64,000 bases of DNA from Thermoplasmata archaeon (GTDB lineage Archaea; Thermoplasmatota; Thermoplasmata; Lutacidiplasmatales; UBA184), in NCBI GenBank assembly GCA_022749935.1, contig JAKIWQ010000003.1:25138-89137 (forward strand), read 5' to 3'. The position numbers and the translations under genes were made by a program. The notes under the pieces were generated by a model. The model was not told the origin of the DNA and did not search any database. It saw only the letters and a program-made list of their open reading frames with translations. Position 1 is the first letter of the stretch, and every line of letters starts with the position of its first letter. This document shows, one piece after another, positions 8,635 through 58,739 of the stretch.

Positions 8635-11600
8635 CTACTTCTCGTCGTCCTCGTCTTCGTCGTCGTCGTCCGCGTCCTTCTCCTTGCTCTTCCGGTCCTG
8701 GCCCGAGCGGCCGGAACCCTTCGGAGTCGACGACTTTCGGCGCGACCGGATCACGAGGTAGATCACGACGATGACCGCCACCGCCGCGGCCCCGATCCCG
8801 ATGTCGATCAGGAGGGTGGTCGTGGGGTTGGGGTTCACCGTGATGGACTGCTGGACCGTCTGGGGCCCGTTCGCGTAGTCGCCGGCGAACTCGTTGCTCG
8901 CGGTCGCGTTCGCGTAGAGCACGAAGTTCCCGGTCGAGCCGGGGTTCCAGGAGATCTCCGCCCGTACGGTCTTGTTGAACCCGAGGGTCGGGACGGCGCC
9001 CGTGGCGAGCACGGTCGAGTTGACGACTCCACCCACGTAGTTGTAGAACCGCACCGACTGGGGTGACCCCCCGACGAGCGCCTTGTTCCCGGTCCCGCTC
9101 GGCGACAGGGTGTAGAACGACACGGTCACGTTGTTCGCGACCGCACTGCTGCCGCCACCCACGGTCACGTTGACCCAGATCGTGTACGACGTACCCGACG
9201 TGAGGGTCGAGGGGGCGGTCAGGTTGTTCGACGCGAGGAGGACGCGGAACGTGGTGTTCACCGACACGGTCAGGGTCTGGTTCGCGTAGGCGTGGTTCCC
9301 GTTCAGGTCCCAGACCGTCAGGTTCACGAGGTATGGCTTCAACTGCGGGTTCAGCCAAGTGCTCGGGACGCTCCCGTTCGGCTTGACGGTCGAGTAGTTC
9401 GCGCCCCAGTGAACGCTCGTGTTGCCCGGGTTGGTGAGGAGCCAGTAGTACCGGACCAGGGACCCGTTGTGCGGGTCGGTCGCGTTCGCCGCGTTCAGTT
9501 GGACCTTCACGCTGTCGTTCTTGCCGACCTGGATGTTGGTGCCGGAGATCGCCTTGCCCGCCGCATTCTGGAGCACGAACGCCGAAGTGGGCTTCTCCGT
9601 GTCGTTCACGAGGACGTTGAACGTCGCCGTGTTGGACTGCCCCGTACCGGACCAGACGGTGAGGCTGACGTTGAACTCCCAGCCGGTCAGGGTGACCGGG
9701 CTCCCGCCGACGAGGGCGGTCTTGGTGTAGTAGTTGCCCGCGCCGAGGAAATGCGGGGTCCAGTTGCCGGGCACCGGGACGCCGTTGGTGCTGGCGGAGA
9801 AGTTCTGGGTGGACTTGTACCCCTTCGCGGTGATGGTCCAAGAGGCGACCGAAATGACGTCGTGGACCGGCGCGGTCGGCGAGATGAGCGCCGTACTCCC
9901 GGTCGCGTTCAGCTGGATCGGGGTCGACCAGTTAATCCGGGCATACGGCCCGGGGGTCGTGAACGAGCTCGTCCAGTTGCCGGTGATCTTCGCGGTGACG
10001 CCACCGGTCGCCGCGACCCAGACCTTGAACTTCGTGTTGTTGACCTGCCCGCCAGAACTAGTCACCGTCAGGGTCCCCGTGTAGGGGGTGCTTCCACTGG
10101 CCGTGGCGTAGGTGTGGTTGGCCGTCACGACGCCCTTCGTCACGTTCGGGCTCGCGTCGCCGAAATCCCAGACGAACTTCGTACCGTTCGTCCCCGCCGG
10201 ATAGGTCGAGTTGAGCGCGCTGAACGTGACGTTCTGGCCGACCCCGACCACGACCGTGTAGTTCGCGTGGGTCCCGTTGAGGACGTTCTTCGAGGAGAAG
10301 GCGAAGTTCTTGACCGAGACATTCACGTTGGCGGTCAGGTTCGCCGCCTTCACGATCGAGAACGTCGCGGTGCCCGACGGGGTCGAGGACGGGAGCGACG
10401 AGAGCGTGAACTTGGTCCAGGTCCCGTTCGGCCCGGTCGGAGAGAGCGACGTTTGCGCCGGAGGGGTCGTGCCCGCCGCGAGCACGTAGTCCGCGGGCAG
10501 GACGACACTGTAGTTGTAGACGTCGGCCGCGGTGGTGGGGTGGGCGAACCCGAAGGAGACCGAGTACGCGCTCGAGTTCTTCGGGAAGGTACCGTTCACG
10601 GCGTAGACCGAGTGCCATCCGTAGGAGATCGACCCGCCGACCGTGGACGGGTTGCACGTCCCAAGGCACGACGACGAGAAGTTGGCCAAGGTAGGACTCA
10701 CGGTCGGGTTGAGGAAGCCGGTCCCGTTGATGGTCAGACCCGCCTGCACCGCGGGGAAGGTCGGGCCGGACGAGGCGAGCCACGCCTGCACGCCGGCGTT
10801 GTCGACCGACGAGAAGTTGACCGAGTGCGCCCAATCCAAGCCGAGTTGCGCCCAGAGCTGGCTGACCGTCCCGTTCGGAAGGTCGGAGAGGACCGAGTTG
10901 TTGCCGAGGTTGACCCCCGTGACGACCGAGATGTTCCCCGAGCCTCCGAGGAGGTTGAGCTTCGAGAGGTTGAGGGTCGTCGCGTAGACACCGAGCTGGC
11001 TCGGCACCAGGGGACTCACCGACAGGTCGTGGGTCACGATCCCCGGTGCGGAGACCGGGAGGTAGAACCAGTTGGTCGTGTAGCCCGAGGTCGCAAGGAC
11101 CACGTCAAACGTGTTGGTCCCGCTCGTGAATCCCGCCGGGTACGTACCCGTAGAGTAGAATCCCCCCGCGGTCGCGGAGGAGTAGATGTACTGGTTCGTC
11201 GGGTCGATCAACGTCACGTTGCCCACATTGGGCACCGGAGCGCCCGTCGAGGCGACGGAGACCCGCCCTTGGACCACGTAGCTGTTGAGCTGGGGATTGA
11301 CCCGCGTCGGCGTTCGGTTGGCGACCGTGACCTGAGTGTAGTTGTAGGTCGTCGGGACCCCATTGAAGGTCGTCTGCAGTACCCAGGTGCCGAACGGAAC
11401 CTTGAGCGTGAAGCTCCCGTTCATGTCGGTGGTGTTGTTGACCAACGACACTCCGTTGTACTTGGCGGCCAGTAGGGAGACGATCGCCCCTTGCTCCCGA
11501 TTCCCTTGGGAGGTGACGTTCCCCCGCAAGGTGGCAGTGTACGAGAGGACGGCGACGTTGGGAACGGTGATGGCGTAGCTGACCTTCGTCAGTTGGCTCG

Positions 11601-12006
11601 CGTTCTGGTCGTAGTACACGGGCGTCGAGTTCTGCGGCAGGATCGCGCATGCGAACGGACGACAGGCGTTCAGGGTGAGGTTCGTCTGGACCGGTACGAA
11701 GACTCCCCAGAAGCCGGGCGCGAGCCCCGAGCACGGGTTCGAGCCGGAGCTCGAGACCTTGAAGAGACCGCCGCTGGCGACGGTCGTGGTGCAGAGGGCA
11801 CCCGTCGCCTTGGACACGACGTCGACCTGCACGCCCGAAGGGACCGGGGGATGACCTGCTCCCGGTTGCTCGACTGCCCCGCTCAGCGTGTACGTCGGCG
11901 ACGCCGCGGCCGCGACCCCGACCAGCGCGCCCAGCGTACTCGCCAGGACCACGAGGGCCAGGACCCACAAGGCGGCATGGGACCCAATCCGGACCAACTG
12001 CTTCAC
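8635..12006 (-). CDS. Very large secreted, C-terminally membrane-anchored glycoprotein (S-layer or cell-surface protein candidate) with at least one PKD-like domain
   Basis: 1123-aa ORF with an N-terminal signal/TM segment (ALWVLALVVLASTLGALVGVAAA). It is rich in T/S/N/V/G and carries several dozen N-x-S/T sequons. A PKD-like stretch reads FVWDFGDASPNVT...HTYA...YTGTLTVT. The C-terminal TM helix is followed by a basic then poly-acidic tail (DADDDDEDEDDEK). Confidence 0.75.
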   Translation of the reverse strand: MKQLVRIGSHAALWVLALVVLASTLGALVGVAAAASPTYTLSGAVEQPGAGHPPVPSGVQVDVVSKATGALCTTTVASGGLFKVSSSGSNPCSGLAPGFWGVFVPVQTNLTLNACRPFACAILPQNSTPVYYDQNASQLTKVSYAITVPNVAVLSYTATLRGNVTSQGNREQGAIVSLLAAKYNGVSLVNNTTDMNGSFTLKVPFGTWVLQTTFNGVPTTYNYTQVTVANRTPTRVNPQLNSYVVQGRVSVASTGAPVPNVGNVTLIDPTNQYIYSSATAGGFYSTGTYPAGFTSGTNTFDVVLATSGYTTNWFYLPVSAPGIVTHDLSVSPLVPSQLGVYATTLNLSKLNLLGGSGNISVVTGVNLGNNSVLSDLPNGTVSQLWAQLGLDWAHSVNFSSVDNAGVQAWLASSGPTFPAVQAGLTINGTGFLNPTVSPTLANFSSSCLGTCNPSTVGGSISYGWHSVYAVNGTFPKNSSAYSVSFGFAHPTTAADVYNYSVVLPADYVLAAGTTPPAQTSLSPTGPNGTWTKFTLSSLPSSTPSGTATFSIVKAANLTANVNVSVKNFAFSSKNVLNGTHANYTVVVGVGQNVTFSALNSTYPAGTNGTKFVWDFGDASPNVTKGVVTANHTYATASGSTPYTGTLTVTSSGGQVNNTKFKVWVAATGGVTAKITGNWTSSFTTPGPYARINWSTPIQLNATGSTALISPTAPVHDVISVASWTITAKGYKSTQNFSASTNGVPVPGNWTPHFLGAGNYYTKTALVGGSPVTLTGWEFNVSLTVWSGTGQSNTATFNVLVNDTEKPTSAFVLQNAAGKAISGTNIQVGKNDSVKVQLNAANATDPHNGSLVRYYWLLTNPGNTSVHWGANYSTVKPNGSVPSTWLNPQLKPYLVNLTVWDLNGNHAYANQTLTVSVNTTFRVLLASNNLTAPSTLTSGTSYTIWVNVTVGGGSSAVANNVTVSFYTLSPSGTGNKALVGGSPQSVRFYNYVGGVVNSTVLATGAVPTLGFNKTVRAEISWNPGSTGNFVLYANATASNEFAGDYANGPQTVQQSITVNPNPTTTLLIDIGIGAAAVAVIVVIYLVIRSRRKSSTPKGSGRSGQDRKSKEKDADDDDEDEDDEK

Positions 12007-12019
12007 GTCTCCCGTTGCT

Positions 12020-12039
12020 CGCCTCCTTATAGGGAGGCG
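12020..12039 (-). promoter_or_regulatory. Perfect 7-bp inverted repeat enclosing a TATA-like hexamer, upstream of the surface-protein gene
   Basis: CGCCTCC-TTATAG-GGAGGCG. The loop reads CTATAA on the minus strand and lies 21-26 nt upstream of the ATG at 12006. The element is also downstream of the cdc48 stop, so a terminator role is possible. Confidence 0.4.
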
Positions 12040-12124
12040 CGGCGCCGAACTTGGCCCTGCTACATATAGCTTGCCCGGTGCAAAATTCCGGCGAATCCCG
12101 ACCCGCGGTCCGGCGAGGGCAACG

Positions 12125-14347
12125 CTACCGGTAGATTCCTTGGACGGGCTCGCTCCGTTGGGCCACGCGGTCGCGGAAGAGTCGCTTTTCGTACTCTTCG
12201 TAGGACCGGAGCGTATCGGCGTCGCACGACGGCCGCACCGTGCGCAGCGCGCCGTCGAAATGGGCCCGGGTCACCTTGGAGGCCTTGATGTTCTCCCGAA
12301 GTGCGGAGAGCCCCGCTTCCCGGCAGAGGGCCGCGAGATCGCTCCCGACGTATCCTTCGGTTCGGACGGCCAGCGCGTTGAGGTCGACGTCGTCCGCGAG
12401 CGGCATTCGCTTCGTGTGGACCTTCAGCACCTCGACCCGGCCGACGACGTTCGGCGGCTCGACATACAGAAGCCGATCGAAGCGACCCGTCCGGAGGAGC
12501 GCCTCATCCAGGATGTCCGGCCGGTTGGTCGCGGCGATGACCAAGACCCGCTCGAGGGATTCGAGCCCGTCGATCGAGGTCAGGAGCTGGTTGACGATCC
12601 GTTCCGTCACCCCGCTCGAGTTCTGGAGACCGCGACGCGGAGCGATGGAATCGATCTCGTCGATGAACACGATCGACGGGGACGCCTGCCGGGCCTTCTT
12701 GAAGATCATTCGGATGGCTTTCTCGCTCTCTCCGACCCACTTGCTCATCACTTCGGGTCCCTTGACCGAGATGAAATTGGCCTGGCTTTCCGTCGCGGCC
12801 GCCTTCGCGAGGAGGGTCTTCCCGACCCCGGGCGGACCGTAGAGCAGGATGCCCCGCGGAGGGTCGATGCCGATGTGACGGTAGGCTTCGGGATGCTTGA
12901 ACGGCAACTCGACCGATTCCTCCAGCACCCGACGGACCCGTTCGAGGCCTCCGACCTCCTCCCAACGGGTCGAGGGGATCTCGACGGTTACGTCGCGCAG
13001 GCTCGAGGGTTCGATCTGCTTCAGGGCCTCGCGGAAATCCTGGTCGGTGACCTTCATCCGCTCGAGAAGGGAGATCGGGATCGGCTGGTCGAAGTCGATC
13101 TCGGGGAGGTACCTTCGAAGCGCCCGCATCGCCGCCTCCCGGCCGAGCGAGGAGAGGTCCGCTCCGACGAATCCGTGGCTCTGGGCCGCCAGGTCCTTGA
13201 GCAGACGCTCCCGATCCCGCTCCGACCCTTCGATCGGCATCCCGCGCGTGTGGATCTGGAGGATCTCGAGTCGACCCTCCTGGGTCGGGACCCCGATCTC
13301 GATCTCCCGGTCGAAGCGACCGGGACGTCGGAGCGCGGGATCGATCGCCTCTTCCCGATTGGTCGCGGCGATTACGATGACGTTCCCTCGTCCGGAGAGC
13401 CCGTCCATGAGCGTGAGCAGTTGGGCGACGACCCGGCGCTCGACCTCGCCGACGACCTCATCGCGACGGGGCGCGATCGAGTCGAGCTCGTCGATGAAGA
13501 TGACGCTCGGGGCGTTCTTCTCCGCCTCCTCGAACTTCTCCCGAAGCTCCTTCTCGCTCTCCCCGTAGTACTTCGAGATGATCTCCGGGCCCTGGATCCC
13601 GATGAAGTGGGCACCGGCCTCGTTTGCGACCGCCTTGGCGATGAGGGTCTTGCCGGTCCCCGGCGGGCCGTAGAGCAGGACTCCCTTCGGGGGCGTGATC
13701 GCGAGCCGGTCGAACAGCTCCGGATGCTTCAGGGGGAGTTCGATCATCTCCCGCACGCGGCCGAGCTTCTCCTTCAGCCCGCCGATGTCCTCGTAGGAGA
13801 TGCGTGGGGCCGCGACCTCCGTCTCGCTGACCGTCTCTTCCTTGATGGTGATCAAGGTCGCGGGCGCGACCTGGACGAACCCCTTCGGCTGGGTCGCGAC
13901 CACCATGAACGGAAGCGAGCCTCCCATGAGGAACACCCCCGGAATGACGAACACGTCGCCGCGGACAAAGGGACGGCGCGCGAGCGCCTTCGCGACGAAG
14001 CTCTCGAGGCCCGGCCCGAGGTCCATGCGGGCCGACCCCGCGTAGATCGGTGCGATCGTCACGGAATCGGCGTTCGGCGCATCGATCCGCATGACGGAGA
14101 TTCGGTCGCCGATGCTGACGCCGGCGTTACGACGCACCACCGCCTCGATCCGGACGAGCCCCTTACCCTCGTCGTCGGGTTGGGCTCGGCTGACGACCGC
14201 GGGGGTGGCCTTGCGACCCCGGATCTCCACTACGTCGCCGAGCCCCACCTTCAGGCGTTGACGGGTCTGGACGTCGAGGCGGGCGGTGCCCAGACCGATG
14301 TCCTGCTGGAAGGCTTCGGCGACGCGCAGCGTGATGGCTTCGCCCAT
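12125..14347 (-). CDS. cdc48: CDC48/VCP/VAT-type AAA+ ATPase (two AAA domains)
   Basis: 740-aa ORF with two Walker A motifs (GPPGTGKT and GPPGVGKT), two DE Walker B motifs, and an N-terminal double-psi-barrel-like domain. Confidence 0.95.
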   Translation of the reverse strand: MGEAITLRVAEAFQQDIGLGTARLDVQTRQRLKVGLGDVVEIRGRKATPAVVSRAQPDDEGKGLVRIEAVVRRNAGVSIGDRISVMRIDAPNADSVTIAPIYAGSARMDLGPGLESFVAKALARRPFVRGDVFVIPGVFLMGGSLPFMVVATQPKGFVQVAPATLITIKEETVSETEVAAPRISYEDIGGLKEKLGRVREMIELPLKHPELFDRLAITPPKGVLLYGPPGTGKTLIAKAVANEAGAHFIGIQGPEIISKYYGESEKELREKFEEAEKNAPSVIFIDELDSIAPRRDEVVGEVERRVVAQLLTLMDGLSGRGNVIVIAATNREEAIDPALRRPGRFDREIEIGVPTQEGRLEILQIHTRGMPIEGSERDRERLLKDLAAQSHGFVGADLSSLGREAAMRALRRYLPEIDFDQPIPISLLERMKVTDQDFREALKQIEPSSLRDVTVEIPSTRWEEVGGLERVRRVLEESVELPFKHPEAYRHIGIDPPRGILLYGPPGVGKTLLAKAAATESQANFISVKGPEVMSKWVGESEKAIRMIFKKARQASPSIVFIDEIDSIAPRRGLQNSSGVTERIVNQLLTSIDGLESLERVLVIAATNRPDILDEALLRTGRFDRLLYVEPPNVVGRVEVLKVHTKRMPLADDVDLNALAVRTEGYVGSDLAALCREAGLSALRENIKASKVTRAHFDGALRTVRPSCDADTLRSYEEYEKRLFRDRVAQRSEPVQGIYR

Positions 14348-14374
14348 CGGCGAGCCGTTTCACCCGTACCCCGC

Positions 14375-14382
14375 CTAAATAG
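14375..14382 (-). promoter_or_regulatory. TATA-like box (CTATTTAG on minus strand) upstream of cdc48
   Basis: AT-rich octamer about 28-35 nt upstream of the cdc48 ATG (14347). A near-identical CTAAATAG box recurs upstream of the gene starting at 25378, and a similar CTAAATAT box upstream of the gene starting at 35175. Confidence 0.45.
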
Positions 14383-14485
14383 GTTCTTGTCTGGCGGGCG
14401 TCGCGCCCGGCCACGAGGCGCTCCGGGTTCTGTTCGGTCCTCAGGAACGGAAGCGAGATATGGAGGCCGGAACGTCGAACGACTC

Positions 14486-15388
14486 GTGACCGACCCCACC
14501 CCGTCTCCCGCAGTTCTGCTGCGGCTCCTGGCGGCGGCGGGGTACCGCGTCCAGCGCCACGAGTTGGCCACGACCGCGGTCCGGATCCGGGACCGTAGGG
14601 CGGTAGTTCTCTCTGCGGCGACCCGTTCGCCCGCGGAGCTCGACAGTCTCTTCCCCGTCGACTCGACCCACCGGACGATCATCTACGACGACGATCCGGG
14701 TCCGGTGGCTCGGGAGATCGCGGCCGACCGCGGGATCGAGACCCTGGACCCTTCGACGCTCGGCCCGGCCCTCGGGGAGCTCCTGCTTCCGTCCCCCTCG
14801 TCTCCGGCGGAGGAACCGACGCGGGGCCCGACCCTCGAGACCCCCTTCTCCGTCCTCCCCGAAGGTGTGCGGATCGTCCGTCCGCGCATCGGTCGGAGCG
14901 AAGCCCAACTCCTGGTCGGGGCGGACGGGCCGGGGTTCACGCTCCGTCTCGTTCCGTTCTTTGTCGCCCCGTACCGTGTACGACCCGCCTCCCCGTATGG
15001 GGAGGGGGTGAAGGTCATCGACCGAACGGTCGCGGTCCATGGCGTATCCAAACACGCGGAGATCTGGGAGGAAGTGGATCGGGAGCTCGTGAGCCGACTC
15101 GAGATCCCTCACCAGTTCATCGCACCCGAGCTGACCGCGTCCGAGGCCGCCGGGATCGCGCTGGAGGCGATCCGACGCCACCATACGATCCACGTCGACC
15201 ACACCGAGCAGCACGGGGGGGCGCTCGTAATCGAGACGCGTCGCGTGCCGCCGGGCCCCGACGACATTCGGATCGGACCGCTGCAGCTGATCTATCTCCC
15301 CCACTGGTACGCCGAGGGCTCTCAGGGCCGCGTCGTCCTCGACGCAGTGACCGGCCACCGGAACGCCACGCCGCCGTCGGCTCGATAG
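14486..15388 (+). CDS. Hypothetical protein (about 300 aa)
   Basis: Distal part of the 1166-aa track ORF 11888..15388, taken from GTG 14486 after the cdc48 antisense region ends. It has strongly GC-rich third positions. The competing minus-strand ORF 14441..15358 looks less protein-like. No family is recognised with confidence. Confidence 0.5.
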   Translation: MTDPTPSPAVLLRLLAAAGYRVQRHELATTAVRIRDRRAVVLSAATRSPAELDSLFPVDSTHRTIIYDDDPGPVAREIAADRGIETLDPSTLGPALGELLLPSPSSPAEEPTRGPTLETPFSVLPEGVRIVRPRIGRSEAQLLVGADGPGFTLRLVPFFVAPYRVRPASPYGEGVKVIDRTVAVHGVSKHAEIWEEVDRELVSRLEIPHQFIAPELTASEAAGIALEAIRRHHTIHVDHTEQHGGALVIETRRVPPGPDDIRIGPLQLIYLPHWYAEGSQGRVVLDAVTGHRNATPPSAR

Positions 15389-16048: not shown

Positions 16049-16615
16049 GTGCCTCCCCTTCCTACCCCCGAGGAGCGAAGCCTTCGGGCCGTGGGTGCCC
16101 GTCGACCGACCGCGGGCACTCCTCCGACCTCCGAACTAATCCGGCAACTGCGGGAGCTCGCTCGGGACGACTCGTCCCTCGTCGCGCTCTTCGATGCGCG
16201 TGGGATCGCCGGGGAGCGGCACCTGCTCTCCGCCTGGGCTCACCTCGGACGTTCCCGCGGTCGCGGGGAGACGCGCCTTCGGGACCGGGGTGCGGAGTTC
16301 GCCCTGTACGTGTCGGGAGAGGATCAACTTCCTCGGGCGCTCGCCCGGGTGGGCGTCTCGGACGACACCTCCCAGTTCGTGGTCGTGGCGGAGCGCCCCG
16401 TCGAACCGAACGACCTGGTCGCGCGGTTCGGTCTCGCGCTCGACCCGACCGCCTATCCCCGGGCGGTGGTCGAGGAAACCCTCGACCGAATCGGGGTCAA
16501 CGAAGCGGAGCGTCGTGCCGTACCGACCTCGGCCTGGGAGGGACTCGTGCTCGAGCGGGTCGCCCTGGTGGACCTCACGACCCCCTCGGGACACGCGTCA
16601 ACGGCAAAGCATTAA
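16049..16615 (+). CDS. cgi121: KEOPS complex subunit Cgi121
   Basis: Distal part of track ORF 15833..16615 from GTG 16049, just after the MBL stop. The HLLSAWAH...AEFALYVSGEDQLPRALARVGV pattern resembles archaeal Cgi121. Confidence 0.6.
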   Translation: MPPLPTPEERSLRAVGARRPTAGTPPTSELIRQLRELARDDSSLVALFDARGIAGERHLLSAWAHLGRSRGRGETRLRDRGAEFALYVSGEDQLPRALARVGVSDDTSQFVVVAERPVEPNDLVARFGLALDPTAYPRAVVEETLDRIGVNEAERRAVPTSAWEGLVLERVALVDLTTPSGHASTAKH

Positions 16616-16655
16616 CCACGGAAGTCGGTCGGAGCGCCGGTCCGCGGGCGTCCGT

Positions 16656-16757
16656 GCAGGTGTAATCTAGTGGCTAGGATGTCAGCCCTCCAAGCTGACC
16701 ACCCGGGTTCGAATCGGCGGACCGGTCCGATCCGCCGCGGAGCTCCCGGCACCTGCA
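16656..16757 (+). tRNA. tRNA gene with a 30-nt insertion (putative non-canonical intron) in the T-loop; anticodon loop CCTCCAA (UCC, Gly, by standard numbering, with C33)
   Basis: Acceptor GCAGGTG/CACCTGC forms 7 perfect bp with discriminator A. D-stem is ATCT/GGAT and the anticodon stem is TCAGC/GCTGA. T-stem CCGGG (16703-07) pairs perfectly with CCCGG (16745-49), enclosing TTCGAAT plus about 30 extra nt (16715-16744). Confidence 0.6.
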
Positions 16758-16818
16758 CTCCCGACGTCCTCGGACCCCGGGCGAGGGTTTATTCCCGAGG
16801 GTTCCGCTCGCTCTTCGC

Positions 16819-16902
16819 GCTGAGGTAGCCTAGTCCGGTAAGGCGCCAGCCTTGAAAGCTGGTGGCGATTCCGCCACGGGAGTTCAAATCTCCCCCTCAG
16901 CG
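16819..16902 (+). tRNA. tRNA-Ser (anticodon UGA), class II with long variable arm
   Basis: Acceptor is GCTGAGG/CCTCAGC. D-arm is GCCT-AGTCCGGTA-AGGC. The anticodon arm is CCAGC-CTTGAAA-GCTGG. The variable arm is TGGCGATTCCGCCAC and the T-arm is GGGAG-TTCAAAT-CTCCC. A TTTATT box lies at 16788-16793. Confidence 0.9.
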
Positions 16903-17637
16903 TTCCTCGGGGGCGACCCCGACGAGCCATCCCCGGTCTATGGATCCGCGACGGCGCGGTGGGAGCCAGGTCGCCTTCAGGCCCGTGGCCCCTAGGAGCT
17001 GCTTCAGCCGGGCCGGCTCGGTCAAGCGCAACTCCTCGACCTCGCGGACGTGTCGGAATCCCCGTCCCTCCTCCCCGATGAGATAGTCGAAGTGGATCTG
17101 CGAATTCACCCCCCGGCGCGTGCCGTAGCCGGCGCGCAAGATCTTGGTGGTCGCGTCCTCGTACAGGTCCACGCTCACATGCCCCGGACGGAATTCCTCC
17201 GGAGCGAGCCAGGGCACCGAGATCGCCACCCCGCCGGGCCGGAGGTGACGGGCGAAGGCCCGAAACGCGGAGCGCAGGTCGGACTCGGTTCGGAGATAGC
17301 CGATCGCGCTGAACAGACAACTCACCACATCAAACCGCGCTCCGAGGTCGAGGGACCGCATGTCGGCCGCGACGAGGGACACCCCGGGGAGTCGACGCCG
17401 AGCTTCCCGCAGCATCGGGCGGCTCAGGTCTACCCCCGCGACGTCGTAGTGACGCCGGAGGAACTCGAGATGGCGACCGGTCCCGCACGCTACGTCGAGC
17501 CATCGACGGCCCGACGACCGGCCGAATCGCCGCGCGAGGGCGACCACGCGGGCCGTCTCGCCCTCGTAGTCGCGGCGGGAGTAGATCCGGTCATAGTAGA
17601 CCGCCAGTTGGCGGTACATCGGAGTCGGTGCGCTCAT
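16897..17637 (-). CDS. Class I SAM-dependent methyltransferase
   Basis: 246-aa ORF with motif I (WLDVACGTGRHL) and VAGVDLS..ML. Its stop overlaps the 3' end of tRNA-Ser by 6 nt on the opposite strand. Confidence 0.75.
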   Translation of the reverse strand: MSAPTPMYRQLAVYYDRIYSRRDYEGETARVVALARRFGRSSGRRWLDVACGTGRHLEFLRRHYDVAGVDLSRPMLREARRRLPGVSLVAADMRSLDLGARFDVVSCLFSAIGYLRTESDLRSAFRAFARHLRPGGVAISVPWLAPEEFRPGHVSVDLYEDATTKILRAGYGTRRGVNSQIHFDYLIGEEGRGFRHVREVEELRLTEPARLKQLLGATGLKATWLPPRRRGSIDRGWLVGVAPEER

Positions 17638-34164: not shown

Positions 34165-35076
34165 TTAATACTGCGGCTTGGCCCGGGCGTACGCTTCCTT
34201 GAGCGCCGTGATGTCGACGTGGGTGTAGATCTGGGTCGTCGCGACCGACGCATGGCCGAGCAGCTTCTGGATGTACCGGATGTCGCACCCCCGCGACAGG
34301 AGGGCGGTGGCGAGGGTGTGGCGAAGCACGTGGGGAGTGACTCGGTGCTGGATCCCGGCGGCCTGGGCCGCTTTCCGCACGATCCGTTCCACGGTGACGG
34401 GGCCGACCGGGAAGAGACGGGTGCTCCCCTCTCCTACGAGGGTGCGCTCGGTCAAGTACCGGTCGATGGCGGCGCGGGAGCGGTCCTCGAGCACGACCTC
34501 CCGGTCCTTGTCCCCCTTACCGGAGCGAACGTGGAGCACGTTGCGCTCGAACTCGATGTCCTCGAGCTCGAGGTGGCACAGTTCCCCGACGCGCAGCCCC
34601 GCGAACCCGAGGACGTGCACCATCGCGCTGTCCCGCGGGGAGTCTTTCACCGCTTCGAAGAGGCGGTGCATCTCGTCCTCCGTCAGGTACCGCGGGAGCC
34701 GCTCGGGCCGGCGCGGTGGCTCGAGCTGGTCCGCGATCGAATACCCAAAGCTTCGGAACAGACAGGTAAGACCCCGGACCGTCGTGTACACGGAGTTCTT
34801 CGAGTAATGCCGCTGCAGCACGAGGTACTCCCGGAACGATTCGAGGTCGTGCAGGGTCACGTCCTCGAGGGGCTTCTGGGTGTAGCCGAGGAACGTCTTG
34901 GCGATGTGTCCGTACTGCTTGACGGTGCAGGGACTCCTCTCCTTCGATTGGAGCATCCGCTGGAATCGCCCTACGAGCTCGTCCACGCGGAAGGTGGGCC
35001 CCTCCGCCGGCTCCGGCCCATCGTTCCTCCCCCGCCGCACGGGCGAGGGTCCGCGCGCGAGCGGAGTCGAAGCCAT
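34165..35076 (-). CDS. xerA: Tyrosine recombinase XerA (archaeal XerC/D homologue)
   Basis: 303-aa ORF with the catalytic region RHTLATALL..G.DIRYIQKLLGHASVATTQIYTHV and the upstream R...HxxR context. Confidence 0.85.
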   Translation of the reverse strand: MASTPLARGPSPVRRGRNDGPEPAEGPTFRVDELVGRFQRMLQSKERSPCTVKQYGHIAKTFLGYTQKPLEDVTLHDLESFREYLVLQRHYSKNSVYTTVRGLTCLFRSFGYSIADQLEPPRRPERLPRYLTEDEMHRLFEAVKDSPRDSAMVHVLGFAGLRVGELCHLELEDIEFERNVLHVRSGKGDKDREVVLEDRSRAAIDRYLTERTLVGEGSTRLFPVGPVTVERIVRKAAQAAGIQHRVTPHVLRHTLATALLSRGCDIRYIQKLLGHASVATTQIYTHVDITALKEAYARAKPQY

Positions 35077-35100
35077 CGACGCTCGCTGGCCGGGATTCGC

Positions 35101-35108
35101 CTAATAAT
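35101..35108 (-). promoter_or_regulatory. TATA-like box (ATTATTAG on minus strand) upstream of xerA
   Basis: Lies 25-32 nt upstream of the xerA ATG (35076). Confidence 0.4.
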
Positions 35109-35145
35109 CGTATGGACGCACAGGAACGGGCCCGCTTCCCGCGGG

Positions 35146-35153
35146 CTAAATAT
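35146..35153 (+). promoter_or_regulatory. TATA-like box (CTAAATAT) upstream of the tRNA thiolase gene
   Basis: Lies 22-29 nt upstream of GTG 35175. It falls inside the N-terminal extension proposed by the track ORF (ATG 35112). Confidence 0.4.
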
Positions 35154-35174
35154 CAGCGCGAGGTTCCGGCCCTC

Positions 35175-36110
35175 GTGAACTGCTCGACCTGCGACGAGCC
35201 GGCGGTGGTCGACCAGCCCTACCGGGGCCAGCACGTCTGCCGGAGCCACTTTCTTTCCTCCGTGGACGACCGGATCCGGTCGGAGTTCCATCGCCAACTC
35301 CCCCGGTTCTCCGGCGGGACGGTCGCGGTCGCGTTGTCCGGAGGGAAGGATTCCGCGGTCGCGCTCGCCGCCGCGCACCGGTACTTCGCCCGACGGTCGA
35401 CGGTCCGGCTCGTCGCCGTGACGGTCGACGAAGGGATCGATGGGTACCGCTCCGGGACCCTCGAGGCGGCCGAACGACTCACTGCGCGATTGGGCGTGGA
35501 GCACCGCGTGGTCCGGGCCGAGTCCGAACTCGGGATGACGACCGACCGCGCGGCGGCCGAGCTCCCGGATACCGTCCCTTGCTCGTTCTGCGGGGTCTGG
35601 CGGCGACGCCTCCTGAACCGGGCCGCCCGGGACATGGAGGCGGAGGTCCTGGTCCTCGGGTTCAACCTGGACGACCTCGCCCAGACCGTGCTCATGAACC
35701 TCGTCCGGGGAGACCTCGACCGGATCGGGCGGATGGCGCCCCACCGGACCCGGCAGCCCGGACTCGTTCCGCGCATCGCTCCCCTCGCCCAGATCCCCGA
35801 GCGGGAGGTGTTCCTCTACGCCCGCCTCACGGGACTCCCGTTCGACCACGGGGAGTGTCCCCACGCCGGCCGGGCGGCCCGGAATGTCTTCCGAGACGTC
35901 CTCTGGCAGCTCGAGGAGGCCCTGCCCGGTTCTCGTCAGGCGTTGCTCCGGACCCGGGAGGAACTCCTCGAGCGCGTGGCTTCCACGGGCCGCGCCGGCG
36001 CCCCTCGGTCGTGCCGGGAGTGCGGAGAAGCTTCGAGTGGGGAGTTGTGCCGATCGTGCACGTACCTCGAACGGGTGCGCCTGCCCATGATCCCGACGGC
36101 GGCCCCATGA
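35175..36110 (+). CDS. tRNA 2-thiolation PP-loop ATPase, TtuA/NcsA (Ncs6/Ctu1) family
   Basis: Contains PP-loop SGGKDS, the central PCSFCGVWRR motif, and N- and C-terminal zinc fingers (CSTC...CRSH and CRECG...CRSC). ATG 35112 is an alternative start. Confidence 0.8.
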   Translation: MNCSTCDEPAVVDQPYRGQHVCRSHFLSSVDDRIRSEFHRQLPRFSGGTVAVALSGGKDSAVALAAAHRYFARRSTVRLVAVTVDEGIDGYRSGTLEAAERLTARLGVEHRVVRAESELGMTTDRAAAELPDTVPCSFCGVWRRRLLNRAARDMEAEVLVLGFNLDDLAQTVLMNLVRGDLDRIGRMAPHRTRQPGLVPRIAPLAQIPEREVFLYARLTGLPFDHGECPHAGRAARNVFRDVLWQLEEALPGSRQALLRTREELLERVASTGRAGAPRSCRECGEASSGELCRSCTYLERVRLPMIPTAAP

Positions 36111-37866: not shown

Positions 37867-38258
37867 GCCTTTCGGGGCTTCGACCCGTCGCGTTGCCAGG
37901 CGGCCTCGCCGATCGAGCGGTAGACCGATTCGGCCTCGTCGGTCGCGGGAGCGTCCCCGCCCTGGCCGACGTCCCGGATCCGGGTTTTCTTCAACAGCCA
38001 GTAATGGATCCTCCAGGTCTTGCCGCGTGAGACGGTCGCGTCCTCCTCCTCGCTCGACAGGAGTCCCTCCTCCTCGAGCTGGTAGAACCGGTCCCGGTCG
38101 TCGCTCGAGAGCTTGTTGTCCAGCACGGTCCCCTCCGCGCCGAAGTAGCCGAGCACCATCCGGGCCGTCGGGCGGGCCTGCTCGGTGGGCATCTTTCCGT
38201 GAATGACAAGGGTCCGTTCGAGCGCGCGAGTGAGCTCGGCTTCGGTGATCGACGCCAT
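37863..38258 (-). CDS. Hypothetical small acidic protein (131 aa)
   Basis: Only the distal part (from Met 38258) of the 570-aa track ORF 37863..39575 is taken; the remainder is antisense to pus10. The sequence looks globular (MASITEAELTRALERTLVIHG...KTWRIHYWLLKK) with GC-rich third positions. Confidence 0.5.
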   Translation of the reverse strand: MASITEAELTRALERTLVIHGKMPTEQARPTARMVLGYFGAEGTVLDNKLSSDDRDRFYQLEEEGLLSSEEEDATVSRGKTWRIHYWLLKKTRIRDVGQGGDAPATDEAESVYRSIGEAAWQRDGSKPRKA

Positions 38259-38294
38259 CCCGGTCGGGGAGGCACCGGCCGGACCGAGGATAAG

Positions 38295-39590
38295 GTGTGC
38301 GCGCGACACGAAACGCTCCGACGAACTTTTGTGACGCTCCGGGGTCGCCTCCCCGTGCCCGACCCGGTCGTGTTCGACCCACCCCCCCCGGCGCTGGCCT
38401 CGGCCCGGGGCGCGCTCGACCGCGGTCTCTGCGCCGAGTGCTTCGGGCGCCTGTTCGGACGGCTCGGTCACGGACTTTCGAACCCGGAACGGGCGGCCCG
38501 ACTCGACCAGCTCCTCGGGGAGTCCCGGTCGCCGGCGGCGACTCCCTGCCCCGCGTGCGGCGACGTGTTCGCCCGCCTGGACATCTGGGTCGACCGGGGC
38601 CTTCGCGCCGTCGAGGGGTTCGAGTGGCACCGGTTCACCTGCGGCTCGCGTTGGGAACCGGAGGTGCTCGCCCGGGAGGAGCATCTGTGGCTCCAGGTCA
38701 CCAGTGAGTGGGGCGAGAGCGCCCGGTCCGCCTTCAACCGGGAGTGGGGAAAGGCCCTCGAGGGCCGGACGGGGGCCTCCGGCGGTCCGGACCGGCCGGA
38801 CGTGGTCTTCCTCGCCGACCTGGCCGTGGGCCGGGTCGAACCGACCGTCCTTCCCGTCTACGTCCGGGGGCGGTACCGGAAGCTCGACCGGACGATCCCT
38901 CAGACCCACTGGCCCTGCCGACGCTGCCGGGGGCGTGGATGCGACACGTGCGGGGGTTCGGGGAAGACGTACCCGACGAGCGTGGAGGAGCTGGTCGGTG
39001 GGCCGCTCCTCACTGCGGCCGGCGCCGAGGAGACCCGCTTCCACGGGATGGGCCGGGAAGACATCGATGCCCGGATGCTCGGTCGGGGCCGCCCCTTCGT
39101 CCTGGAGTTGGTCCGGCCCCGTCGGAGGACGCTGGACCTCGCCGCGCTGGTCTCGGAGGTCGCCACGAGTTCCGCCGGGCGGGTCGAAGTCGACGAGCTC
39201 CGGACGGCCGACGCGGGCGACGTGCTGCTCGTGAAGGAAGCGGCGCCGGAAAAGAGCTACCGGGTCGGCGTCGTCGGGTCGGTACCCGTGGCAAAAGTTA
39301 ATGAGGCGCTGGACGTCGCGACGGGCCGAGCGATCGCTCAGCGCACCCCCACTCGGGTGGCCCACCGGCGTTCCGACCGCGTCCGCGCGCGTCGGATCGT
39401 CTCGGCCCGGGTCGTCGAGTCGGCGGAGGCGGGCTTCACGCTCGAGATCCGGACCGAAGCGGGCACATACGTCAAGGAGTGGGTGGAAGGAGATGGGGGC
39501 CGTACCGAACCAAACCTCGCGGGACTCGTGGGAGTCCCTCTGAAGGTCGGCTTCCTCGACGTGCTGGACGTTCACGACACGCTAGGATAG
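38295..39590 (+). CDS. pus10: tRNA pseudouridine synthase Pus10 (psi54/55)
   Basis: Start is at GTG 38295 or 38331 within track ORF 38199..39590. N-terminal zinc motifs are CAECFGRLFG and CPACGD. The C-terminal GTYVKEWVEGDGGRTEPNL is typical of Pus10. Confidence 0.85.
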   Translation: MCARHETLRRTFVTLRGRLPVPDPVVFDPPPPALASARGALDRGLCAECFGRLFGRLGHGLSNPERAARLDQLLGESRSPAATPCPACGDVFARLDIWVDRGLRAVEGFEWHRFTCGSRWEPEVLAREEHLWLQVTSEWGESARSAFNREWGKALEGRTGASGGPDRPDVVFLADLAVGRVEPTVLPVYVRGRYRKLDRTIPQTHWPCRRCRGRGCDTCGGSGKTYPTSVEELVGGPLLTAAGAEETRFHGMGREDIDARMLGRGRPFVLELVRPRRRTLDLAALVSEVATSSAGRVEVDELRTADAGDVLLVKEAAPEKSYRVGVVGSVPVAKVNEALDVATGRAIAQRTPTRVAHRRSDRVRARRIVSARVVESAEAGFTLEIRTEAGTYVKEWVEGDGGRTEPNLAGLVGVPLKVGFLDVLDVHDTLG

Positions 39591-40231: not shown

Positions 40232-40777
40232 GTGGAGAGCTACGCGCACATCTTGGATTACCTGCCGAACGGTCGGCAGACCGAACGGGGATTCCATCGT
40301 GAACCCCTCGCCCTTGCCGTCGGCGAGGACGAGCTGAAACTCTTCGAACTCGTACCGCGCGTCGGCGCGAAGCTCACACCGGGGCAACGGATCTCGCTCC
40401 TCCCCCTCGAGGGGGTCCCACCCCCGATCGACCACGTCCGCCGCCGCCTCGCCCACGACGAGCTCACGGTGGCGGCCCGGGCAGAACTGACGGCAGCTCT
40501 CGAGCGGATCGTACGGGCCAACCCGAGCCGCTACCTGCGGTTCTTCAACGAGGCTCCCGCCGTCTCCCGCCGATTCCACCTGCTCGAGCTCCTGCCAGGG
40601 ATCGGGAAGAAGACGATGCAGCAGATCGTGGACGAACGCAAGCGGGCCCCGTTCGCCAGCTTTGAGGAGATGGAGAACCGCCTGCACATGAAGAGTCCCG
40701 AACTCTTGATCGTGGGCCGGATCGAACAGGAACTGAGCGGTGTCGAGGACAAGTACCGGCTCTTCGTCGCACCCTGA
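40232..40777 (+). CDS. DUF655-family protein (putative RNA-binding, HhH-containing)
   Basis: 181-aa ORF with N-terminal YAHILDYLPNGR...ALAVGEDELKLFELVP, typical of DUF655. It is in the conserved position before ksgA. Confidence 0.7.
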   Translation: MESYAHILDYLPNGRQTERGFHREPLALAVGEDELKLFELVPRVGAKLTPGQRISLLPLEGVPPPIDHVRRRLAHDELTVAARAELTAALERIVRANPSRYLRFFNEAPAVSRRFHLLELLPGIGKKTMQQIVDERKRAPFASFEEMENRLHMKSPELLIVGRIEQELSGVEDKYRLFVAP

Positions 40778-40832
40778 CCCCGGGACCACCGGTCTTCCGC
40801 CGGTCCCCACGACGCCCTCCGAGGTTCGGAGC

Positions 40833-41633
40833 GTGCTCGCGGGGCTCGCCGTTCGGCCCTCGAAGGGATGGGGACAGTCGTTCCTCACCGACCCGTTCGT
40901 CGCGGACGCCGAGGCCGCGCTCCTCGACCTCTCGCCCGGTCACCCGATCCTCGAGATCGGAGGGGGACTCGGCCAGTTGACGGCGGCCCTTCTCCGCCGC
41001 GGTCTCGGACCCCTCACCGTGGTCGAGCGAGACCCCCGCCTCGCCCGGTTCCTGCGACGCACGTTCGGGCACCGGATCACCCTCCTCGAGGGGGACGCCC
41101 TCGAGGTCGACCTCCCGCCGGTGGACGCCGCCGTCGGCAACCTGCCGTACGCGGTGGCGACCCCGCTCCTCCTCCGCCTGTTCGCGGCGCGGGTCCCGCG
41201 CATCGTCTTTCTCGTGCAGGAGGAGGTGGCCCGTCGGCTCGCGGCCGGCCCCGGGTCGAAGGAATACGGCCGGCTTTCGATCATCGCCCAGCTGTACGGG
41301 TCCGTCGAACTGTACCGAACCGTCCCGCCCTCCGCCTTCACTCCGGTCCCGGAGGTGACCAGCCGGTTGGGGGTCCACGAGGCGAGGGTCGGGACCCTCC
41401 CCGTCCCGTCGGTCCCCGCGTTCGAGGAGGTCGTCCGCACACTTTTCTCCTCCCGCCGAAAGCAGCTCCGAAACCTCATGCCCCGCGTGGTGCCCTCGGC
41501 TCCCGAGGCCGAACGACTTCTCCGCCAGGCCGGATGGCCCGACGACTGGCCCGGGCGTCGTCCGGAGACCCTGCCACCGGAAGCCTACTTCTCTCTCGCA
41601 CGGGAGTTGGCCCCGCGGGCGAACTCCGGGTAG
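40833..41633 (+). CDS. rsmA: 16S rRNA (adenine1518/1519-N6)-dimethyltransferase RsmA/KsgA (Dim1)
   Basis: Contains GQSFLTD, the SAM motif ILEIGGGLGQLT, VERD and GNLPY. GTG 40833 is preferred; the track start at 40740 overlaps the upstream gene by 38 nt. Confidence 0.85.
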   Translation: MLAGLAVRPSKGWGQSFLTDPFVADAEAALLDLSPGHPILEIGGGLGQLTAALLRRGLGPLTVVERDPRLARFLRRTFGHRITLLEGDALEVDLPPVDAAVGNLPYAVATPLLLRLFAARVPRIVFLVQEEVARRLAAGPGSKEYGRLSIIAQLYGSVELYRTVPPSAFTPVPEVTSRLGVHEARVGTLPVPSVPAFEEVVRTLFSSRRKQLRNLMPRVVPSAPEAERLLRQAGWPDDWPGRRPETLPPEAYFSLARELAPRANSG

Positions 41634-58610: not shown

Positions 58611-58666
58611 CGACGCCTTCGTCCGAGCCTTTATCTCTCGGAGTCCAGTCGGCCCGAACCGTCTAC

Positions 58667-58739
58667 GGGCCCGTAGCTCAGTCGGTAGAGCAGGCGGCTC
58701 TTAACCGCAAGGTCAGGGGTTCGAATCCCCTCGGGCCCG
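58667..58739 (+). tRNA. tRNA-Lys (anticodon CUU)
   Basis: Acceptor is GGGCCCG/CGGGCCC. D-arm is GCTC-AGTCGGTA-GAGC. The anticodon loop is CTCTTAA and the T-arm is AGGGG-TTCGAAT-CCCCT. Total length is 73 nt. Confidence 0.9.

What the first reader, a model, noticed from the sequence alone, without database searches (positions are those of the whole stretch)
16656..16757. tRNA gene interrupted by a 30-nt insertion inside the T-loop (non-canonical intron candidate), with C at position 33
The + strand at 16656-16757 forms a complete cloverleaf only if 30 nt are removed from the T-loop. The acceptor GCAGGTG (16656-62) pairs perfectly with CACCTGC (16750-56), and the discriminator is A. The D-stem is ATCT/GGAT and the anticodon stem is TCAGC/GCTGA. 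T-stem CCGGG (16703-07) pairs perfectly with CCCGG (16745-49), but between them lie the canonical T-loop TTCGAAT (16708-14) plus 30 extra nt (about 16715-16744). The junction is ambiguous by 1 nt either way because T16714=T16744 and C16715=C16745. The insert forms its own 7-bp hairpin (CGGCGGA 16715-21 / TCCGCCG 16731-37). Removing it gives a 72-nt tRNA. Introns at non-canonical positions, including the T-arm, are known mainly from Thermoproteales and a few other archaeal lineages, whereas this contig looks euryarchaeal/Thermoplasmatota-like. I could not fold a strict bulge-helix-bulge motif around the junctions by hand, so the excision mechanism is open. The second oddity is the 7-nt anticodon loop, which reads CCTCCAA: anticodon UCC (Gly) preceded by C33 instead of the near-universal U33.
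Basis: partly seen in the sequence, partly recalled or inferred. Interest (0 to 1): 0.7.

Follow-up and report, generated by a model that had tools for sequence, protein, structure and literature searches.

The report
tRNA-Gly gene with T-loop intron
This is a real glycine tRNA gene from a soil archaeon, interrupted in its T-loop by a 30-base intron with the textbook archaeal splicing signal; this rare arrangement is conserved across the archaeon's whole order, and two thirds of the species sampled also carry an unusual C next to the anticodon.

Summary
Window 16656-16757(+) is tRNA-Gly(UCC) with a 30-nt intron.
- outer helix: the T stem
- 3' bulge: GC|U
- central 4-bp helix: U54-G57 (UUCG) paired with intron CGGA
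- 5' bulge: AA|U
- inner helix: 7 bp

This places the splice sites at 16713|16714 and 16743|16744, which is tRNA position 59/60.

The source is a Thermoplasmata MAG of the order Lutacidiplasmatales (UBA184). The same interrupted gene lies next to Cgi121 in 78 of 80 species-level genomes. Introns are 28-34 nt and free to vary, while BHB pairing is kept (98% of cells paired, 9 covarying pairs). In the related Methanomassiliicoccaceae, the nine matching genes found share the 3' half of the tRNA and are all intronless with U33, so the intron was probably gained in or near this order.

C33 is real. It occurs in 53 species against U33 in 25, with about 8 switches on a tree.

Position 59/60 BHB introns are already known (ARMAN-2, Crenarchaeota), and C33 has a precedent in Sulfolobales tRNA-Cys. 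This is therefore a new member of a known kind, not a new mechanism. No RNA data were available.

The parts
16606..16616 (+). Putative BRE/TATA-like promoter box AAAGCATTAAC of the tRNA-Gly gene. It overlaps the Cgi121 stop codon TAA at 16613-16615.
   Evidence: An AAAG-(C/A)-(A/C)-TTAA-like box lies 38-50 nt upstream of the tRNA 5' end in most of 78 loci. The promoter role is inferred, not tested.
16656..16713 (+). 5' exon of tRNA-Gly(UCC), tRNA positions 1-59: acceptor 5' strand, D arm, anticodon arm (C33 = 16688, anticodon 16689-16691), variable region, T stem 5' strand, and T-loop nucleotides 54-59 (UUCGAA).
   Evidence: Invariant or covarying in 75 distinct sequences.
16703..16707 (+). 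Outer BHB helix, 5' strand (T stem CCGGG). It pairs with 16745-16749.
   Evidence: 100% paired.
16708..16711 (+). Central 4-bp BHB helix, exon strand (U54 U55 C56 G57). It pairs with 16738-16741.
   Evidence: Fully paired (4/4) in 74 of 78 loci. 99% of cells paired, with U-A/U-G alternation and one G-C to A-U compensation.
16712..16714 (+). 5' three-nucleotide bulge AA|U. The 5' splice site lies between 16713 and 16714.
   Evidence: The cleavage position follows the BHB rule as described for canonical introns (PMC4090602).
16714..16743 (+). Intron, 30 nt, at tRNA position 59/60.
   Evidence: Removing it gives a tRNA that ARAGORN accepts. Length is 28-34 nt in relatives, with variable sequence.
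16715..16737 (+). Inner BHB helix (CGGCGGA 16715-21 / UCCGCCG 16731-37) closing a 9-nt loop (16722-30).
   Evidence: Six of 7 pairs show changes on both sides across 75 sequences.
16738..16741 (+). Central 4-bp BHB helix, intron strand (CGGA).
   Evidence: Variants are CGGA 32, CGAA 25, CGAG 12, CGGG 5, and TGAA 1 paired with UUCA.
16742..16744 (+). 3' three-nucleotide bulge GC|U. The 3' splice site lies between 16743 and 16744.
   Evidence: The first two bases vary and the third is T in 78 of 78 loci.
16744..16757 (+). 3' exon: U60, T stem 3' strand CCCGG, acceptor 3' strand CACCTGC, and discriminator A73. CCA is not encoded.
16049..16615 (+). Cgi121 (KEOPS subunit) gene, the syntenic anchor immediately upstream.
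   Evidence: Pfam PF08617. 100% match to NCBI L3K10_01175, Thermoplasmata archaeon. Synteny shown.
16819..16902 (+). tRNA-Ser(UGA), the next gene downstream. It is syntenic in all relatives examined.

Best explanation
Window 16656-16757(+) is the functional tRNA-Gly(UCC) gene of a Lutacidiplasmatales (Thermoplasmata) archaeon, split by a 30-nt intron between tRNA positions 59 and 60.

In the precursor, T-loop nucleotides U54-G57 pair with the intron's CGGA. This forms the central 4-bp helix of a strict bulge-helix-bulge motif. On the outside it is flanked by the T stem, and on the inside by a 7-bp intron hairpin. A 3-nt bulge on each strand presents a splice site.

Inferred steps:
1. The archaeal splicing endonuclease EndA cuts after the second base of each bulge (16713|16714 and 16743|16744).
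2. RtcB joins the exons, restoring the T loop UUCGAAU and a 72-nt tRNA.
3. RNase P, tRNase Z and the CCA-adding enzyme finish the ends.

The intron was probably gained in, or just before, the ancestor of this order, and has been kept since.

Position 33 is a pyrimidine that toggles between U and C within the order. Both forms must work, because GGA codons are common.
For: **Shown by computation:**
- The cloverleaf is restored only after removing 30 nt.
- Every BHB pair was checked base by base.
- The same gene lies 3' of Cgi121 in 78 of 80 species-level genomes. These include UBA184 and Ca. Lutacidiplasma silvani.
- Introns are 28-34 nt. The central helix is 4/4 paired in 74 of 78 loci, and T60 is invariant.
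- On an ungapped 32-sequence alignment, 98.2% of cells pair, 7 pairs change on both sides, and 0 of 500 shuffles reach the observed percentage paired, double-change cell count or covariation score (1 of 500 for the number of double-change pairs); slid controls give 34-45%.
- On a CM-guided alignment of 75 distinct sequences, 98.2% of cells pair and 9 pairs covary. Those include acceptor 6-67, anticodon stem 27-43, central-helix 57 and six intron-helix pairs.
- Intronless genes with the same 3' half of the tRNA (anticodon-stem 3' strand, T arm and acceptor 3' strand; D loop, position 26 and variable region differ) occur in Methanomassiliicoccaceae. They score 66-68 bits on Rfam tRNA.
- GGA makes up 15% of Gly codons, 13.4 per 1000.
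- There is no other hidden tRNA in the window.

**From the literature:**
- The BHB is two 3-nt bulges around a 4-bp helix, and 59/60 is a known intron site (PMC4090602).
- ARMAN-2 has a strict hBHBh' intron at 59/60 (PMC3239211).
- All EndA forms cut a canonical BHB. The homodimeric Ferroplasma (Thermoplasmatales) enzyme cuts minimal BHB substrates without a tRNA body (PMC8707768).
Against: - There is no RNA evidence, so splicing, ligation and aminoacylation are all inferred.
- EndA and RtcB are not in the window, and the EndA type of this order could not be determined.
- The minimum-free-energy fold does not form the central 4-bp helix: -46.3 kcal/mol against -40.8 for the BHB cloverleaf. This is usual for BHB motifs, but it means thermodynamics alone does not support the structure.
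- A second, divergent tRNA-Gly(UCC) copy elsewhere in these genomes cannot be excluded. Only about 3.5 kb per genome was examined.
- Reviews state that alpha4/alpha2 enzymes act on BHB 'at the canonical position' (PMC4090602, PMC3239211). In vivo use of a T-loop site by such an enzyme is therefore an extrapolation.
Confidence: 0.88

Rival explanations
1. The gene is spliced, but at the first reader's alternative junctions (60/61 or 61/62) rather than 59/60.
For: In the window all three cuts give the same 72-nt product, because T16714 = T16744 and C16715 = C16745. Position 60 is not strongly constrained in tRNAs (general knowledge).
Against: Only 59/60 places both cuts after the second base of a 3-nt bulge flanking a 4-bp helix (rule from PMC4090602). 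In relatives the base after A59 varies (T 46, A 31, C 1), whereas the base before CCCGG is T in 78 of 78 loci. That T equals T60 of the intronless orthologues.
Confidence: 0.04
2. The 30 nt are not removed. The locus would then make a tRNA-like RNA with an extra arm in the T loop and some non-translational role.
For: No RNA data exist. The inner hairpin is stable, and the MFE fold keeps it as an extension of the T arm.
Against: The exact BHB geometry is conserved: 3-nt bulges and a 4-bp helix, with the intron strand co-varying with T-loop position 57. Meanwhile hairpin sequence and length drift. That is the signature of a splicing signal, not of a functional arm. GGA codons need a UCC tRNA, and no intronless copy with the same 3' half (T arm and acceptor) turned up from this order in the one metagenome scan; its nine hits all have a different D loop and Methanomassiliicoccaceae-type neighbours where checked.
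Confidence: 0.04
3. It is a decaying tRNA pseudogene, or the scar of a mobile-element insertion.
For: Standard tRNA finders miss it. It has C33. A tyrosine-recombinase gene lies in the window at 34165-35100.
Against: The gene is kept at the same site in 78 species-level genomes. All stems pair 100%, and there are compensatory changes in the acceptor and anticodon stems. The recombinase is 17 kb away.
Confidence: 0.02

Closest known systems
ARMAN-2 (Ca. Micrarchaeum acidiphilum) pre-tRNA-Pro(GGG) and pre-tRNA-Cys(GCA) introns at 59/60 (PMC3239211)
   Same: Intron inserted in the T loop at exactly 59/60. The tRNA-Pro case is a strict hBHBh' motif, like this one.
   Different: ARMAN-2 is a DPANN archaeon with an epsilon2 EndA of broad specificity. 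56% of its tRNA genes are disrupted, often with relaxed motifs and multiple introns. Here there is a single strict-BHB intron in a Thermoplasmata order, fixed in one tRNA across at least 78 species. The EndA type is unknown, and alpha'2 is expected from related orders.
Non-canonical tRNA introns of Thermoproteales and other Crenarchaeota (Sugahara 2008, Marck & Grosjean 2003, as reviewed in PMC4090602)
   Same: BHB-bounded introns at positions other than 37/38, including 53/54, 56/57 and 59/60. They are missed by simple tRNA finders.
   Different: Those lineages have (alpha-beta)2 EndA with a specific loop, many introns per genome, frequent relaxed hBH/HBh' motifs, and evidence of intron transposition. 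None of that was seen here.
Methanopyrus kandleri pre-tRNA-Glu(UUC) non-canonical D-loop intron (PMC5829648)
   Same: A euryarchaeal exception to the rule that introns sit only at the canonical position.
   Different: That intron is a relaxed HBh' motif in the D loop, it accompanies a canonical intron, and M. kandleri has a heterotetrameric EndA. This one is strict, single, and in the T loop.
Canonical archaeal 37/38 tRNA intron
   Same: Same motif and same topology: the exon strand supplies the central helix, the 5' cut is in the inner bulge, and the 3' cut is in the bulge next to the tRNA stem. The enzymes are presumably the same (EndA, RtcB).
   Different: The host helix is the T stem instead of the anticodon stem. 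The central helix uses the universally conserved U54-U55-C56-R57 instead of nucleotides 32-35. The T-loop/D-loop tertiary core therefore cannot form before splicing.
C33 in Sulfolobales tRNA-Cys(GCA) (PMC7668247) and in many eukaryotic initiator tRNA-Met (PMC5041475)
   Same: A clade-specific replacement of the near-universal U33 by C.
   Different: Here it is in tRNA-Gly(UCC) of a Thermoplasmata order. It is not fixed: C in 53 species, U in 25, with about 8 switches.

Membership tests
Archaeal BHB (hBHBh') tRNA intron | Two 3-nt bulges on opposite strands, separated by a 4-bp helix. | tested here: met
   Bulges at 16712-14 and 16742-44. The helix pairs 16708-11 with 16738-41 (U-A, U-G, C-G, G-C). 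It is 4/4 paired in 74 of 78 loci.
Archaeal BHB (hBHBh') tRNA intron | Flanking helices on both sides (strict form). | tested here: met
   The outer helix is the 5-bp T stem, 100% paired. The inner helix is 7 bp, 92% of cells paired, with 6 covarying pairs.
Archaeal BHB (hBHBh') tRNA intron | Excision at the bulge sites restores a canonical tRNA. | tested here: met
   ARAGORN calls tRNA-Gly(tcc), 72 nt, only after removal. The product equals the T arm and acceptor of intronless orthologues that score 66-68 bits on RF00005.
Archaeal BHB (hBHBh') tRNA intron | Intron sequence is free to vary while the structure is kept. | tested here: met
   Length 28-34 nt, variable loop, 9 pairs with double changes, 0 of 500 shuffles.
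Archaeal BHB (hBHBh') tRNA intron | Cleavage by EndA and ligation by RtcB in the organism. | not testable with these tools
   No RNA data. No EndA or RtcB gene in the 64-kb window.
tRNA-Gly(UCC) | Anticodon UCC in a 7-nt loop, discriminator A73, C2-G71, and orthology to known tRNA-Gly. | tested here: met
   The anticodon-stem 3' strand, T arm and acceptor 3' strand are identical to Methanomassiliicoccaceae tRNA-Gly(tcc).
tRNA-Gly(UCC) | U33, the universal elongator tRNA feature. | tested here: not met
   C at 16688. C33 occurs in 53 species and U33 in 25. It is always a pyrimidine.
tRNA pseudogene | Loss of constraint: broken stems and no conservation among relatives. | tested here: not met
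   All four tRNA stems are 100% paired in 75 distinct sequences, with compensatory changes.
Self-splicing group I/II intron in tRNA | A catalytic RNA core of hundreds of nucleotides. | tested here: not met
   The insert is 28-34 nt, and no Rfam intron family matches it.
Integrated mobile element at a tRNA gene (att site) | Adjacent integrase, direct repeats of the tRNA 3' part, and variable presence among relatives. | tested here: not met
   The nearest recombinase is 17 kb away. The insert is present at the same site in 78 of 78 informative loci.

The most novel reading that the evidence does not exclude
The genomic U/C toggling at position 33 does not matter because the RNA is corrected or compensated. 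One route would be an unknown C-to-U deamination at C33. Another would be C33 acting as a protonated mimic of U33 in the U-turn in these acid-soil archaea. Either way, this order would be a natural system where an essential elongator tRNA escapes the universal U33 rule.
Probability: 0.07. Interest if true: 0.7.

Novelty: new member of a known kind. Interest (0 to 1): 0.4.

Why it matters
- **Annotation.** Common tRNA finders (ARAGORN, Rfam at threshold) miss this gene in every genome examined from this soil order where they were run. Codon-coverage and MAG-quality counts will therefore wrongly report tRNA-Gly(UCC) as absent.
- **EndA specificity.** It is a clean counter-example to the statement that Euryarchaeota-type lineages carry tRNA introns only at 37/38. 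It fits the idea that a strict BHB is enough for any EndA, wherever it sits.
- **Intron origin.** The nine closely matching genes found in the related Methanomassiliicoccaceae are all intronless. The intron is fixed in at least 78 Lutacidiplasmatales species. This looks like a bracketed intron gain that could inform the debate on how tRNA introns arise.
- **U33.** The recurrent U33/C33 switching offers a natural experiment on how indispensable U33 really is.

Tried and rejected
- **Unspliced sequence.** ARAGORN, with and without its intron option, and Rfam at gathering score find nothing.
- **Energy folding.** MFE folding does not show the central BHB helix, so it neither finds nor refutes the motif.
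- **Source contig.** Looking it up by the exact Cgi121 protein failed.
- **Outgroups.** A second Cgi121 homology search from a basal member stayed inside the order and gave no outgroup.
- **L069 and L083.** These two Cgi121 loci have lost synteny and say nothing about the tRNA.
- **First trees.** Two quick trees were distorted by wrongly extracted ORFs and over-counted the U/C switches at 12. One rebuild timed out. The tblastn-based tree gives 8.
- **C33 and GC pressure.** Not supported: GC is 0.712 for C33 loci against 0.702 for U33 loci.
- **EndA type.** There is no EndA in the window. A recalled M. jannaschii EndA sequence matched PDB 1A79 and the T. acidophilum dimer 2OHC. I had no way left to reach the Lutacidiplasmatales enzyme, so the type remains unknown.
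- **Other explanations.** A group I/II intron, an att-site scar and a pseudogene were considered and rejected (see the membership tests).

Full report
**1. What is in the sequence.**

Window 16656-16757(+) reads:

GCAGGTG TA ATCT AGTGGCTA GGAT G TCAGC CCTCCAA GCTGA CCAC CCGGG TTCGAAT [..] CCCGG CACCTGC A

ARAGORN finds only tRNA-Ser(tga) at 16818-16903 and tRNA-Lys(ctt) at 58666-58740 in the window. Rfam at gathering score finds the same two. With permissive thresholds, Rfam gives the candidate 22 bits by forcing a false 3' half. When 30 nt are deleted, ARAGORN calls a 72-nt tRNA-Gly(tcc) with a normal cloverleaf.

**2. The missed splicing motif.**

Reading from the outside in:

| Element | Coordinates | Bases |
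|---|---|---|
| Outer helix (T stem) | 16703-07 / 16745-49 | CCGGG / CCCGG |
| 3' bulge | 16742-44 | GC\|U |
| Central 4-bp helix | 16708-11 / 16738-41 | UUCG / CGGA (U-A, U-G, C-G, G-C) |
| 5' bulge | 16712-14 | AA\|U |
| Inner helix (7 bp) | 16715-21 / 16731-37 | CGGCGGA / UCCGCCG |
| Loop (9 nt) | 16722-30 | |

This is the strict hBHBh' form: two 3-nt bulges around a 4-bp helix, with a helix on either side (definition in PMC4090602). It has the same topology as a canonical 37/38 intron, with the T stem taking the place of the anticodon stem. In canonical introns the 5' cut falls after the second bulge base; the same is assumed for the 3' bulge from the motif's two-fold symmetry. Applying this rule puts the splice sites at 16713|16714 and 16743|16744, which is tRNA position 59/60.

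Minimum-free-energy folding does not draw the central helix: -46.3 kcal/mol against -40.8 for the BHB cloverleaf. Thermodynamics alone is therefore uninformative here.

**3. Whose genome.**

The upstream gene is Cgi121. Its product is identical to NCBI L3K10_01175 from a 'Thermoplasmata archaeon' MAG.

Searching one genome per species for Cgi121 relatives gave 80 loci. All but one are labelled Thermoplasmata or Thermoplasmatales MAGs; L035 is labelled only 'bacterium'. They include UBA184 and Candidatus Lutacidiplasma silvani. The source therefore belongs to the order Lutacidiplasmatales (UBA184, formerly TMEG): high-GC, acid-soil archaea (PMC9287336).

The gene order is conserved: MBL-fold protein, Cgi121, tRNA-Gly, tRNA-Ser(UGA), convergent methyltransferase, MutS.

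**4. Comparative test.**

Of the 80 loci, 78 carry the same interrupted gene right after Cgi121. One is cut by a contig end, and one has masked bases in the anticodon. The other two have lost synteny and are uninformative.

Across 78 distinct species-level copies:

| Feature | Values |
|---|---|
| Intron length | 28-34 nt (30 nt in 39 copies) |
| Central helix | 4/4 paired in 74 copies |
| Intron strand of central helix | CGGA 32, CGAA 25, CGAG 12, CGGG 5 (U-A and U-G alternate) |
| Compensation at position 57 | where G57 became A, one lineage has TGAA |
| First intron base | T 46, A 31, C 1 |
| Base after the 3' cut | T in 78 of 78 |

Formal pair counts:
- On an ungapped 32-sequence alignment, 98.2% of cells pair and 7 pairs change on both sides. 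None of 500 shuffles reaches the observed percentage paired, double-change cell count or covariation score (1 of 500 for the pair count). Slid controls give 34-45%.
- On a covariance-model-guided alignment of 75 distinct sequences, 98.2% of cells pair and 9 pairs change on both sides. These are acceptor 6-67 (U-A/U-G/C-G), anticodon stem 27-43 (U-A/G-C), central helix 57, and six pairs of the intron hairpin. Again 0 of 500 shuffles, with slid controls at 31-45%.

This excludes a pseudogene or a chance hairpin.

**5. Junction.**

In the window, the three candidate cuts are indistinguishable. In relatives they are not. The base after A59 varies freely, as an intron base should. The base before CCCGG is always T. 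Only 59/60 fits the BHB geometry. The intronless orthologues (section 6) have the T loop TTCGAAT, so T60 is the exon base.

**6. Relatives without the intron.**

One metagenome scan used a pattern covering the last two anticodon bases, the anticodon-stem 3' strand, an uninterrupted T arm and the acceptor 3' strand. It found nine genes. All have U33 and a different D loop. Where checked, the neighbouring proteins are named Methanomassiliicoccaceae. These genes score 66-68 bits on Rfam tRNA.

So a related order of the same class has this tRNA uninterrupted, and no intronless copy attributable to Lutacidiplasmatales turned up. The simplest reading is an intron gain in or near the Lutacidiplasmatales stem. 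Loss in the other order is not excluded, and other sister orders were not sampled.

**7. Mechanism.**

The shown parts are the motif, its conservation, and the restored tRNA. The inferred parts are:
- transcription from an AAAGCATTAAC-like box 38-50 nt upstream, which overlaps the Cgi121 stop codon
- cleavage by EndA
- ligation by RtcB
- end processing and CCA addition (CCA is not encoded)

The literature supports feasibility. All EndA architectures cut a canonical BHB, and the homodimeric enzyme of Ferroplasma (Thermoplasmatales) cuts minimal BHB substrates without a tRNA body (PMC8707768). Thermoplasmatales EndA is of the alpha'2 type (PMC5829648).

A consequence, also inferred: U54, U55 and C56 are locked in the central helix before splicing. 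T-loop folding and T-loop modifications must therefore follow splicing. A Pus10 gene and a TtuA-like gene lie in this window.

I could not find EndA or RtcB in the window, and I could not determine the EndA type of the order.

**8. C33.**

C at 16688 is real. Across species, 53 have C33 and 25 have U33. It is never a purine.

On a tblastn-based tree of four flanking proteins (894 columns, 67 taxa), the basal lineages have U33. Parsimony needs 8 changes (8-9 in bootstraps), against 14-21 when the states are shuffled. The state is therefore clustered but recurrent.

C33 occurs only with a U6-A67 acceptor pair, and some sister clades differ at three tRNA positions at once. Allele exchange may account for part of the pattern.

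GC content does not differ between the groups. GGA is 15% of Gly codons in the window. The tRNA is therefore needed, and both forms are presumably functional.

Precedents exist: C33 in Sulfolobales tRNA-Cys(GCA) (PMC7668247) and in eukaryotic initiators (PMC5041475). Whether the mature RNA keeps C33 is unknown.

**9. Comparison with what is known, and novelty.**

- Position 59/60 is listed among known non-canonical intron sites (PMC4090602).
- ARMAN-2 has a strict hBHBh' intron at 59/60 in tRNA-Pro(GGG) and a relaxed one in tRNA-Cys(GCA) (PMC3239211).
- The same reviews state that Euryarchaeota carry introns only at the canonical position. The cited exceptions are M. kandleri and M. thermautotrophicus (PMC4033280; PMC5829648).
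- I found no paper mentioning tRNA introns in Lutacidiplasmatales or Thermoplasmatota. tRNAscan-SE 2.0 searches for such introns by default and may well annotate this one.

This is a new member of a known kind: a known mechanism and a known position, in a new lineage, fixed order-wide, with a bracketed origin and an unusual Y33 polymorphism.

**10. Limits.**

- No RNA data were available.
- Only about 3.5 kb per related genome was seen, so a second tRNA-Gly(UCC) copy or further non-canonical introns elsewhere cannot be excluded.
- The EndA type is unknown.
- The trees are distance-based on four proteins.

Noticed in passing
window 16783-16902: tRNA-Ser(UGA) at 16819-16902 follows the Gly gene after 61 nt. 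It has its own TATA-like GGTTTATT box about 30 nt upstream, conserved in L001 and L003. Its 3' end overlaps by a few bases the stop of the convergent methyltransferase ORF 16897-17637(-).
   Followed up: partly
window 16606-16616: The Cgi121 stop codon (TAA, 16613-15) lies inside a conserved AAAGCATTAAC-like box. The box is kept even where the C-terminal residues differ, which suggests one sequence serves as both gene end and tRNA promoter.
   Followed up: partly
window 34923-36110, 38031-39590, 40737-41633: A cluster of RNA-modification genes: a TtuA-like PP-loop protein (2-thiouridine-54 type), Pus10 (the archaeal pseudouridine 54/55 synthase family) and KsgA. The first two act on the T-loop bases that are sequestered in the BHB helix of the precursor.
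   Followed up: no
window 34165-35100 (-): A tyrosine recombinase (phage-integrase family, Xer-like) overlaps the start region of the TtuA-like ORF. I did not look for a mobile element around it.
   Followed up: no
window 11888-15388 (+): A 1166-aa ORF with no Pfam hit. It is most likely the antisense shadow of the Cdc48/AAA gene on the other strand (12125-14359), a typical high-GC artefact.
   Followed up: partly
L032:2108-2209, L074:2105-2206, L009, L014, L016: Natural variants of the motif. L032 has a 4-nt 3' bulge (an extra T). Ca. Lutacidiplasma silvani (L074) has 3 of 4 central pairs. L009 and L014 have A57 unpaired, and L016 has A57 compensated by U. These would be useful natural substrates for testing EndA tolerance.
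   Followed up: partly
L010/17/19/27/45 versus L012/28/31/37/39/61/73/76: Sister clades differ at three tRNA positions together: D-loop T/C, position 33 C/U, and position 67 A/G. C33 is only ever found with U6-A67. This hints at exchange of whole tRNA alleles between lineages rather than repeated point mutation.
   Followed up: partly
L040:2108-2207 (UBA184): The anticodon loop of the tRNA-Gly gene is replaced by NN in the stored record, so the position-33 state of UBA184 itself could not be read.
   Followed up: no
window 8635-12270 (-) and 58790-61762 (-): Two very large ORFs with PKD and Kelch repeat domains. They are probably surface proteins and were not examined further.
   Followed up: no
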